Both the position numbers and the translations under genes were made by a program. 64,000 nt of DNA from Perna viridis (Eukaryota), in assembly GCA_037379345.1 (NCBI GenBank), contig CM074511.1, forward strand, positions 58,472,862-58,536,861, written 5' to 3'. The notes under the pieces are model-generated. The model was not told the DNA's origin. It worked only from the letters and a program-made list of their open reading frames with translations, and did not search any database. Of this stretch, positions 520 to 40,012 are shown in pieces. Position 1 is the stretch's first letter. Each line of letters begins with the position of its first letter.

Positions 520-3500
520 CAGTCCTCAGCAGCCTGTCTGATCCATTTCAAAACATCATCCATGTTTAAGGTGATTAGTGTCCTTTCAAGTTGTACATAT
601 GTTGCAAACATGTCTCCTATCTTTTCCCTTGCTGCTACTAACATCTAAAAATAATACTTGAAGCTTTTATATTAATTGGCAAAAACAGCTTTTTAAACAT
701 AAGGTAGATACAAATCATAGATAGTTTTCATTTCTAACATTAACATATGTTTTGTAATAAGTACGTGTAATTTTCCATGGCTTCTAAACCTAAAAGCGAG
801 ATGGGTACCTACCCCTAACAATTGATGTTCTTTGTTTGTTGTCAATGCATCATTGAAGATCTTGTCGTTTTCAGGCCTAGAGAGACCCATCTGTAGTCCT
901 ATTTCATTCATTGATCCATAGTTTCCAAATTTCTCTATTAATTCTACAAAGAACTGTTCTGATGCTGGAGTCAGTTGTTCTGTAACAGTAATAACAACTG
1001 CTTACAGTGTCTGTTTCATGCAGGTGTAAAATACAATTTGTTTTAAGTAATACTTTATTTCTAATCAAGCAATGTATGTTATATTGAATTACCAGAGCTA
1101 CCCCCAATGTGTGCCCTAACATTGTCCATATATAAAAAGTGGATTTAAACTAGATTGATGCTAGCGTATGAAGTAGAAACTGAAAAGTGATATCAATAGG
1201 AGCAGAAATTTTGATATAGTATCTACTGGATGATATTTCTAAAATGTGGGCTGGAATATGTTTTTCGCTGAAGATGCTGTCCAAATAGATTTCAGACAAA
1301 AATTCAGGACCAGAATTTTTTTTCCTTACACAAAATCAGGAAGTGTGCTTTTCTGTTTTAACTTACCTGTTTTTAAAGGTCGGTGAGATGGCCCTGTTAA
1401 CTTGTTTGCTGCCCATTTATAAAAACGGTCCTTGCTTTCAATGTTATTCTTAAGCCTTCAAATAAAGAGTTAATATTACAAACAATAAAGCTCGTCATAA
1501 ATGAGACAATCTGTATAGTGTAAATAAGTACTATCTTTGAAAAAAGATAGCCGACGCAGTAAAAATTTCTTCTTTTTATTTCTAAGTTTCTACATTTCGT
1601 TCAAGAAAATAACACATGGCACGCGATTATAAATTTTCGAAACTTTTTTTCGAACGCCACTAAATTATCAGTATTTGGCCAATCGGGAAACAGAATTGCG
1701 ATCAGGTGACTTGCGTTTCCTTAGAAGAACGTCCTTAAGGTCAAAGGGTAAAAAGCGAAAATATACCGACGGCGTCGGAAAAAAAAACATTAGTGCAGCT
1801 TTTATGTTAAATTTCATACTTTTACAAATGCTTCCACTACGTGTTTTTACATTGTAAGCACAGAAACTCCTTACCTATGCTACGGAATTAGTTTTAGTGA
1901 AAAGGTGCCCGGAGAAAGATAATTTTAAGACATTGCCTCCGTTCCCCTTTCTATGTTCAGATTCCACGTAAAAGCGGGAAACACTTTCCTTAATCAATGA
2001 TGCGTGACTCTTACCATATTTCTAGTTCATCATGTATTAATTGTACTAAATCTTCTCTTTCGATTCTGTGAAGGACAGATACAAGATCATTCACACCATA
2101 GTCCTCTCTGTGTTTACTGGTGTCCCTCCATAACATCATCACCTATACAACAGTGGTAAATATATATTAGTTAAATCGAGAAGAGGATTATGAGTAAAAG
2201 AGTTCTGGTTATCACGTAATACTGCCAGTTGCTTGTAATATTATCATACTAAATAAACCAAGTCGTTATTTTTATTCGGTTACGAACATAAGAAATATGC
2301 TTTAAAGTATCAAAGAGTTTGCCTTATATATACACGTATTCTTATTCATATTATAATAGTTCATGAGCAGCACATTCATCAATTCTTTTGCCGGAAAACA
2401 CTGATATTTTAAGCTCAAACGATGGATTTAGAGCCATACAACATGTTTACCTTAAATTTTTTATCTTGGTCGCTCAGTTTGGCATTGGTCCTGTATATTT
2501 CTACAGTGCGGTATGAAAGACCGAGAAGCACAGCAACTTTAGTCCATTCATCTCCCATACTTTTACACAACTGGCGTAGTAAGCTGTCTTTAGTAAAGCC
2601 TAAGTAAAAAAAGACAATAAGATTTATATACCCCGCGACATGAAGTAGCGAGTTAGTATTGGATAACCTAAGAAAAGTCCCCGGCAGTTTCCAGATGGTA
2701 ACATGAGAACGGATCAATGATTTTTTTTTTAAACTTTGCACAGCTGTTAAGTTGAAGTTTAAGAATGAGGCAAAATTGGAAAAATGAGGGGGCTGTTGTT
2801 CAACTTGTCTGCTAAAAATAAAACCATCGATCTGACAGTATAAATACACACAAGGATGCTTTCTCCATTTGAAAAGACCATTATCTGACCAAGGCATCAC
2901 TGGATTTTTCCTAAGAAATTTTTCGACAGAATGTTAAAAAAATGATCGAGGTTTTTGACAATGTTATCTGCCCCTGAAACGTTAATTAGTGTAGTTCAGT
3001 GAAATTATAACTGAATTTACCAAAATCATATGTAAAATCTTGTCTTTTTTCCTTGATTCTGATTGTACAAATAGTCAAATTTAACTTTCAAAATGGTGGG
3101 TTTTTCATACCATGTTTTACCCACTGCATGATTCTTACAGTTTTGTTTGTTTGTTGGGGTTTAACGTCCGAGCAGGAATATTTCAGCTATAAAGATTGAC
3201 ACTTAAGTACCAAAAAATACAGGTTAAGTAAAATTTGTAGCAAAATCTATAATTAAGTTTGAGGTCATTTTAATTATTTTGCCATCGCCCTTTTTCATAA
3301 TCACGTGGCGGAGTATCACATATAATGTTCCGTTATTGTCCTAGTTTATATAATTTGCTTCATCCTTTTCATACTGAATATTACATGTCAAAATCTGTAT
3401 CGCAAGCTGCATCAACCCAAGACTCCTATATCACAACAAGGGCGATACAGATTTTGACATGTCATGTTCATTATATCATATATTTTAAGCATGCTTCAAG

Positions 3501-40012: not shown

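What the first reader, a model, noticed from the sequence alone, without database searches (positions are those of the whole stretch)
520..40012. Candidate system: head-to-head death-domain scaffold and giant Ubl-ankyrin protein, with a nested CUL3 adaptor
Seen: the ATGs at 10274 (-) and 11256 (+) are about 1 kb apart with first-exon donors pointing outward. Both genes encode ankyrin proteins, and the plus-strand gene hosts a BTB-Kelch gene in intron 2. Established: divergent gene pairs often share promoters; paired sensor/executor genes are known in plant NLR immunity; human PIDD1 is recruited through its UPA domain by the ankyrin-repeat protein ANKRD26. Inference (speculative): this is a co-regulated scaffold plus death-effector module with ubiquitin control, acting in innate immunity or germ-line/centriole quality control.
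Basis: inference. Interest (0 to 1): 0.75.

Follow-up and report, generated by a model that had tools for sequence, protein, structure and literature searches.

The report
Ancient mollusc death-adaptor, giant-ankyrin gene pair
In this mussel two spliced, expressed genes sit head-to-head: a death-domain protein that likely cuts itself like human PIDD1, and an unstudied 3,900-residue ankyrin protein; their relatives are annotated as one fused protein in two abalones, so they may work together, while the nested Kelch gene is likely a bystander.

Summary
The anatomy is real. Plus gene: 10 exons, ATG 11256, 3,930 aa; an RNA-type contig of 14,943 nt splices 10943-11259 to 18059, so it does not start downstream of 18 kb. 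Minus gene: 15 exons, ATG 10274, 1,336 aa, last exon left of the window; ankyrin repeats, a likely ZU5-ZU5-UPA block, a death domain, and a His-Phe-Ser motif kept in 19 of 19 relatives. An intronless KLHL10-like BTB-Kelch gene lies antisense in intron 2.

New here: orthologues have neighbouring accessions on one contig in two Mytilus species, and in two abalones a giant-family protein and the whole death protein form one 4,600-aa model. So the link spans bivalves and gastropods, but in tandem there, not head-to-head.

Not shown: the Ubl, ZU5 and second death domain (tests inconclusive), binding, co-regulation, any role for the Kelch gene. The ANKRD26 analogy fails: it binds PIDD1 through a coiled-coil region. 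Verdict: old two-gene link, partnership about 35%, three-gene system under 10%.

The parts
520..10274 (-). Death-domain adaptor gene, exons 1-14 of 15 (10161-10274, 9574-9675, 9224-9322, 8443-8541, 7866-7957, 7276-7630, 6775-6981, 4798-5102, 4037-4572, 2451-2599, 2015-2142, 1367-1455, 813-979, 520-644). Exon 15 lies left of the window (-1311 to -2754). 1,336 aa: 4 ankyrin repeats, likely ZU5-ZU5-UPA, death domain, a further helical domain, low-complexity tail.
   Evidence: One open frame, GT-AG introns; five CT..AC joints each in 4 of 4 runs; 75% identity to Mytilus P0005; Pfam Death passes its cut-off in P0005, P0007, P0009.
4800..4808 (-). His455-Phe456-Ser457, candidate self-cleavage site just before the UPA-like exon
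   Evidence: Present in 19 of 19 related records, 10 named species; the motif's role in PIDD1 from PMC9162469 section 6. Cleavage here is inferred.
4037..4572 (-). UPA-like exon
   Evidence: Pfam UPA_2 E 0.0064, 16.8 bits, under the 22.7 cut-off: weak.
10275..11255 (.). Divergent 5' region: both 5' UTRs and a gap of roughly 520-620 bp or less between them; candidate shared promoter
   Evidence: Plus contig reaches 10943. CpG o/e 1.1 at 10.5-11.5 kb against 0.81 for the window. Start sites not mapped.
11256..40012 (+). Giant ankyrin gene, 10 coding exons (11256-11260, 18060-18396, 21758-21941, 22359-24057, 24871-26410, 26723-26888, 28615-28777, 30418-30561, 31197-35571, 36833-40012), 3,930 aa: conserved N-terminal domain (aa 1-175), long ankyrin and helical region, repeated [IV]DWxSF alpha/beta modules, an Ig-like domain near aa 3665-3790, and a CxxC tip
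   Evidence: One open frame, all GT-AG, 45% identity over the full length to P0001; intron 1 seen in RNA-type contig; model of the last exon pLDDT 68 with Ig-like matches at Z 6-8.6; motif repeat scores 28.5 and 21.3 against shuffled maxima 14.3 and 13.3. Introns 2-9 rest on splice signals and homology.
18873..20624 (-). Intronless BTB-BACK-Kelch gene, 583 aa, KLHL10-like, nested antisense in intron 2 of the giant gene
   Evidence: Pfam BTB, BACK, Kelch over cut-off; nearest Atlas clusters named kelch-like protein 10, score 0.98 (a lead); contigs of run X1 cover 18476-19803 and 19936-20400; exact protein on 2 Logan contigs.
40013..42850 (+). Inferred 3' UTR of the giant gene, about 2.8 kb
   Evidence: 14,943-nt contig minus 12,106 nt of modelled 5' UTR and CDS leaves 2,837 nt; AT-rich, T-skewed 40-43 kb; AATAAA at 42428 and 42596.

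Best explanation
Two spliced genes lie head-to-head here: one encodes an ankyrin and death-domain adaptor that likely cuts itself at a conserved His-Phe-Ser site, the other a 3,930-residue ankyrin protein that is likely a scaffold, and the two have likely been neighbours since before bivalves and gastropods split, while the nested Kelch gene is likely an unrelated passenger. Shown: gene structures, splicing, orientation, conservation of the motif, fused models in two abalones. Inferred: the adaptor works like PIDD1, with ankyrins in place of leucine-rich repeats; cleavage at F456/S457 would free a UPA-death-domain fragment that gathers death-fold partners (caspase or NF-kB signalling). The two mussel genes likely share promoter DNA. 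Whether the two proteins act together is open (about 35%); the old linkage and the abalone models favour it, nothing shows it. The Kelch gene is likely a germ-line CUL3 adaptor with its own promoter.
For: Gene models and joints. HFS in 19 of 19 relatives, placed just before the UPA-like exon as PIDD1's second site is (PMC9162469). M. californianus: giant XP_052097446/457, adaptor XP_052097462-489, both on a 142,435,203-base contig; M. trossulus XP_063420163 and XP_063420153, both on a 113,486,924-base contig. Argopecten: both on a 48,145,685-base contig, accessions 531 apart. Haliotis asinina P0032 carries the giant's N-terminal three quarters plus the adaptor (32% over 882 columns, E 7e-154); H. 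rubra P0069 is the same. Kelch: single exon, own CRE-like site 80 bp upstream, CpG o/e 0.99 against 0.70 (giant) and 0.74 (adaptor exons 1-14; 0.52 with exon 15).
Against: ZU5 was not detected by Pfam, by a profile search of the PDB or by profile comparison with four own-genome ZU5 ORFs (score 18.2 against shuffled maximum 20.9); its only statistical support is one match to a sub-cut-off ZU5 ORF (E 5e-6 among 384 ORFs). UPA is under cut-off. The matching site of the first ZU5-like region reads HVRSF, not HFS. Linkage is read from accession order and contig length, not from coordinates, and orientation in Mytilus is unknown. The oyster model P0038 joins the complete giant to an unrelated protein, so this gene is prone to merged models.
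Confidence: 0.5

Rival explanations
1. The pair is a functional unit. The giant protein holds or positions the self-cleaving adaptor; mussels couple them through a shared promoter and abalones through a true gene fusion in which the adaptor replaces the giant's C-terminal Ig and CxxC part.
For: Same fused model in two abalone species, 4,604 and 4,605 aa; 94% identity in both 200-residue bins around the junction, as high as elsewhere; the fused proteins lack the C-terminal CxxC motif found by pattern in 6 of the 9 other family members tested, and H. asinina keeps a second, complete giant paralogue (P0029) on a contig of the same length.
Against: Only 2 of 1,472 long candidates scored were such fusions, both Haliotis, both NCBI models and so possibly not independent; neither cluster has a transcript-derived member. 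An 18-residue stretch just before a shared Met at the junction is only 11 of 18 identical, as a read-through 5' UTR could be. The oyster merge shows such artefacts occur.
Confidence: 0.35
2. One reading: scaffold, death effector and a CUL3 adaptor that ubiquitinates one of them, co-regulated in immunity or the germ line.
For: All three genes are real and overlap or adjoin. Drosophila Klhl10 with Cullin-3 is needed for caspase activation in spermatids and binds a giant protein, dBruce (PMC1976628, abstract), so a KLHL10-like adaptor beside a death-domain gene is not absurd.
Against: The Ubl it relies on was not confirmed. ANKRD26 binds PIDD1 through a coiled-coil region. The Kelch gene differs from the two others in CpG content and has its own upstream CRE-like site. 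KLHL10 orthology rests on an Atlas name only.
Confidence: 0.07
3. Chance neighbours in mussels only; the abalone models and accession patterns mislead, and the three genes have nothing to do with each other.
For: About 10% of genes sit head-to-head within 1 kb (abstract starts). No coordinates were seen for any other species. Argopecten accessions are 531 apart.
Against: Even a wrongly merged model needs the two genes side by side on one strand, and it occurs in two gastropods.
Confidence: 0.08

Closest known systems
PIDD1 (LRR-ZU5-ZU5-UPA-DD; PMC9162469, section 6 and passages read)
   Same: Repeat domain, then a likely ZU5-ZU5-UPA block, then a death domain; His-Phe-Ser just before the UPA-like part.
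   Different: Four ankyrin repeats instead of seven LRRs; one HFS, not two; an extra helical domain and a long low-complexity tail; ZU5 not statistically confirmed; no sequence match to PIDD1 shown.
Ankyrin-1/2/3 (ANK-ZU5-ZU5-UPA-DD; ZZUD per PMC9162469 passages)
   Same: Same domain order as the minus-strand protein.
   Different: About 4 repeats instead of 24 (number recalled); PDB matches to ankyrins cover only aa 10-147; the genome's strong ZU5 and UPA_2 hits lie together elsewhere, on contig C4.
KLHL10 (CUL3 adaptor; PMC1976628 abstract)
   Same: BTB-BACK-Kelch; nearest Atlas clusters carry this name.
   Different: Orthology not tested by a tree; here intronless and nested; tissue unknown.
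ANKRD26-PIDD1 at centrioles (PMC7883297, passages)
   Same: A large ankyrin-containing protein beside a PIDD1-like protein.
   Different: ANKRD26 binds through aa 911-1181, a coiled-coil region; the giant protein has another architecture and its named relatives are all molluscan.
Head-to-head gene pairs, including paired plant NLRs (the latter recalled)
   Same: Divergent genes with 5' ends under 1 kb apart.
   Different: No NACHT/NB-ARC or LRR domain was found by Pfam in either protein; the relatives are tandem in abalone.

Membership tests
PIDD1 family | N-terminal leucine-rich repeats | tested here: not met
   Ankyrin repeats at aa 7-147, no LRR hit.
PIDD1 family | Two ZU5 domains | tested here: inconclusive
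   No Pfam or PDB hit; hhalign not above shuffles; one match to a sub-cut-off ZU5 ORF, E 5e-6. Not folded.
PIDD1 family | UPA domain | tested here: inconclusive
   UPA_2 E 0.0064, under cut-off; not among the 2 own-genome UPA_2 hits.
PIDD1 family | Death domain | tested here: met
   Pfam Death over cut-off in orthologues P0005, P0007, P0009, P0032; weak on the window's single exon (E 0.018).
PIDD1 family | His-Phe-Ser motifs at two sites | tested here: not met
   One site only: kept in 19 of 19 relatives; the first position reads HVRSF.
PIDD1 family | Self-cleavage and RAIDD/caspase-2 recruitment | not testable with these tools
   Needs expression and binding tests.
Canonical ankyrins (ANK1-3) | About 24 ankyrin repeats before ZU5-ZU5-UPA-DD | tested here: not met
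   About 4 repeats in aa 7-147.
Ubiquitin-like (beta-grasp) domain, giant aa 18-95 | Beta-grasp fold or Ubl profile match | tested here: inconclusive
   No Pfam hit, no PDB profile hit for this part; model of the Mytilus orthologue pLDDT 47 with strand-strand-helix at aa 20-62; fold lists filled by the ankyrin part.
KLHL (BTB-Kelch CUL3 adaptors) | BTB, BACK and Kelch propeller | tested here: met
   All over Pfam cut-off; full-length match to KEAP1, E 3.6e-89.
KLHL10 orthologues | Groups with KLHL10 in a tree; testis expression | not tested
Bidirectional-promoter gene pair | Divergent 5' ends within 1 kb | tested here: met
   Start codons 982 bp apart; plus contig reaches 10943.
Bidirectional-promoter gene pair | One element drives both genes; correlated expression | not testable with these tools
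   Contig depth cannot rank genes.
Paired sensor/executor NLRs | NACHT or NB-ARC domain | tested here: not met
   No such Pfam hit in window ORFs or in 11 full-length or partial relatives.

The most novel reading that the evidence does not exclude
An undescribed mollusc-wide two-part death-signalling machine: a giant ankyrin scaffold with repeated [IV]DWxSF modules of unmatched fold restrains or positions a self-cleaving ankyrin-ZU5-ZU5-UPA-death-domain adaptor. The two have stayed linked from mussels to abalones, coupled by a shared promoter in one lineage and by true gene fusion in the other.
Probability: 0.3. Interest if true: 0.7.

Novelty: new variant of a known kind. Interest (0 to 1): 0.42.

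Why it matters
Molluscs have many death-domain proteins with unknown partners. A linkage that survives from mussels to abalones, with a fused form, names a candidate partner for a PIDD1-like adaptor and gives a first handle on an uncharacterised 4,000-residue protein family. The conserved HFS gives a one-residue test of self-cleavage. If the fusion is a merged model, what remains is an old gene neighbourhood and two well-defined unstudied genes.

Tried and rejected
Complex prediction of the M. californianus adaptor (aa 1-640) with the giant's C-terminus (aa 3700-4030): no answer, score 0.00, alignments not used, partner fold uncertain; no evidence either way. Run search: no RNA holder listed on record; the four runs laid are guessed RNA and were chosen for holding the giant gene. 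Kelch cover: bins 19077-20400 had depth 10.5 and 4.8 in X1 and 0-0.63 in X4, X5, X6; missing cover in contigs is not proof of silence, so it is not used as evidence. No reads were laid beyond 20,400, so introns 2-9 of the giant gene lack direct RNA support. First giant model (9 exons, 3,886 aa) dropped: it missed exon 28615-28777. Ubl: Pfam, PDB profile and two fold searches gave nothing for aa 1-170. Second death domain at aa 760-870: no Pfam hit, hhalign 11.7 against shuffled 14.8; left as 'helical domain'. ZU5a against ZU5b: not above shuffles. [IV]DWxSF modules: no match listed in the PDB searches, but lists were filled by the Ig-like domain and the modules were not folded alone; Atlas gave no usable hit. 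Own-genome paralogues: giant C-terminal piece 1 match (self) of 2 candidates; UPA exon 3 matches of 10; no giant similarity in 40 kb and 30 kb around the two paralogues. The protein merged to the oyster giant has no match in this window. X-box, DRE and E2F patterns: none in the divergent region. Literature: six LOC identifiers gave 0 papers; two term searches gave 2 and 3 papers, one read in passages (PMC8195603) without mention of this pair, the others seen as listings only; supplements were not searched. A nested-gene search was seen as listings and not used. Earlier findings of this scan: none near.

Full report
Setting. The window is C1:58,472,862-58,536,861 of a 723-Mb genome in 46 contigs. 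The closest named proteins are from Mytilus at 45-75% identity, so the organism is inferred to be a mussel outside that genus.

Plus gene. ATG 11256 has an in-frame stop just upstream and a donor two bases after it. Ten exons give one open frame of 3,930 aa with GT-AG introns, aligning over its full length to M. californianus P0001 at 45%; identity is 85% in the first 200 residues and about 26-33% in the last 700 (earlier model). Run X5 has a 14,943-nt contig in which 10943-11259 is directly followed by 18059-18398. The model accounts for 12,106 nt of it and leaves 2,837 nt for a 3' UTR. Only intron 1 was seen directly. A search of 1.84 billion representatives with the last exon gave 17 hits; I looked up 16, 10 carry a species name (one through a cluster member), and all 10 are molluscs: mussel, scallop, pearl oyster, oyster, ark clam, freshwater mussel, abalone (2), limpets (2). 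Pfam finds only ankyrin repeats over cut-off. A model of the last exon (pLDDT 68) shows repeated strand-helix-helix-strand modules that begin with [IV]DWxSF, then an Ig-like domain (best Z 8.6, rmsd 2.7 over 89 residues, among many tied IPT, filamin and other Ig folds). The repeat is above shuffles for 2 of 2 pairs controlled, over 16-27 columns only. The N-terminal Ubl stays unproven: the model had pLDDT 47.

Minus gene. Fifteen exons give 1,336 aa; the last is outside the window. Five joints read CT..AC in 4 of 4 runs; the first five exons were not in the cut tables, but the leftover contig lengths fit them. The protein is 75% identical to M. trossulus P0005 and 45% to scallop proteins. Ankyrins and a death domain pass Pfam in orthologues. 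The middle reads as ZU5-ZU5-UPA by inspection, with weak support only and three negative tests. His-Phe-Ser at 455-457 is kept in 19 of 19 related records from 10 named species, abalones included. In PIDD1 this tripeptide drives self-cleavage at two sites, the second freeing PIDD1-CC (PMC9162469, section 6). Here only the second position has it. Self-cleavage is therefore a prediction.

Nested gene. A single 583-codon exon on the minus strand in intron 2 encodes BTB-BACK-Kelch; the Atlas's nearest clusters are named KLHL10. Contigs of run X1 cover most of it. It has a TGACGTCA site 80 bp upstream (3 in the window, 0.66 expected from base composition) and a higher CpG content than the two long genes. 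In its own genome only 2 other matches reached E 1e-20 among 92 candidates, at 30% and 43% identity. Its position in other species was not tested.

Linkage. In M. californianus and M. trossulus the two orthologues have accessions 5 and 10 apart on contigs of the same length. In Argopecten they share a contig length but are 531 accessions apart. These are indirect signs; I saw no coordinates or strands. Haliotis asinina P0032 (4,604 aa) matches the giant from residue 4 to about 3,360 and then the adaptor over 882 columns. A search for long proteins holding the adaptor part found 2 among 1,472 scored: P0032 and H. rubra P0069. The junction is as conserved as the rest (94%), and the fused proteins lack the giant's C-terminal CxxC tip. 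Against a true fusion: both are NCBI models, no transcript-derived member exists in their clusters, a short less conserved stretch precedes a shared Met, and the oyster model P0038 joins the complete giant to an unrelated protein that I recognise from memory as RICTOR (label not tested). I put true fusion near 40%. Either way the two genes are adjacent and on one strand in abalones, so the link is old (the age of the bivalve-gastropod split, over 500 million years, is recalled) but its orientation is not fixed.

Reading. The best-supported picture is an old two-gene neighbourhood: a PIDD1-like adaptor with ankyrins and a giant scaffold-like protein, sharing 5' DNA in this mussel, with a KLHL10-like passenger. 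A working partnership of the two is a live lead (about 35%). The Klhl10-caspase link in fly spermatids (PMC1976628, abstract) keeps the three-gene idea alive at a low level. Searches for six gene identifiers and two term sets found no paper on this pair; supplements and most subscription journals were not covered.

Noticed in passing
window 9972-10196: A 45-bp unit repeated 5 times copies the end of the minus gene's first exon with its splice donor, giving five in-frame donors 15 codons apart. Contig lengths fit the first donor, but use of the others was not resolved.
   Followed up: partly
window 11241-11249: A minimal upstream ORF (ATG GCA TAG) six bases before the giant gene's ATG, in the same frame.
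   Followed up: no
window 11437-11715: A 39-bp tandem repeat, about 7 copies, at the start of intron 1 of the giant gene.
   Followed up: no
window 15344-15980, about 35850-36650, 55700-56790, 60446-60997: Pieces of a high-copy repeat with short similar ORFs; contig depth of tens of thousands at 15.1-16.4 kb. Looks like a decayed retroelement (recalled, not tested).
   Followed up: no
P0038 (Ostrea edulis XP_056019639.1) aa 3950-5644: The oyster model joins the complete giant protein to a second protein that looks like RICTOR (recalled label); Logan members of the cluster end at the giant's own C-terminus, so probably a merged model.
   Followed up: partly
G000:C1:25,746,424 (L002) and G000:C11:11,168,272 (L007): Two distant paralogues of the UPA-like exon (33% and 31%); the first also matches the death domain and the following helical domain.
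   Followed up: partly
L005 (G000:C1, near 25,776,600), minus strand: An open frame of at least 3,101 codons, cysteine-rich at its start, extracellular-looking.
   Followed up: no
L010, L011, L014, L015: Four own-genome ORFs of 393-526 aa, each with a hydrophobic stretch followed by a ZU5 domain, UNC5-like by appearance.
   Followed up: partly
window 57205-57722 and 63017-63355, minus strand: Short ORFs that look like exons of another gene to the right of the giant gene.
   Followed up: no
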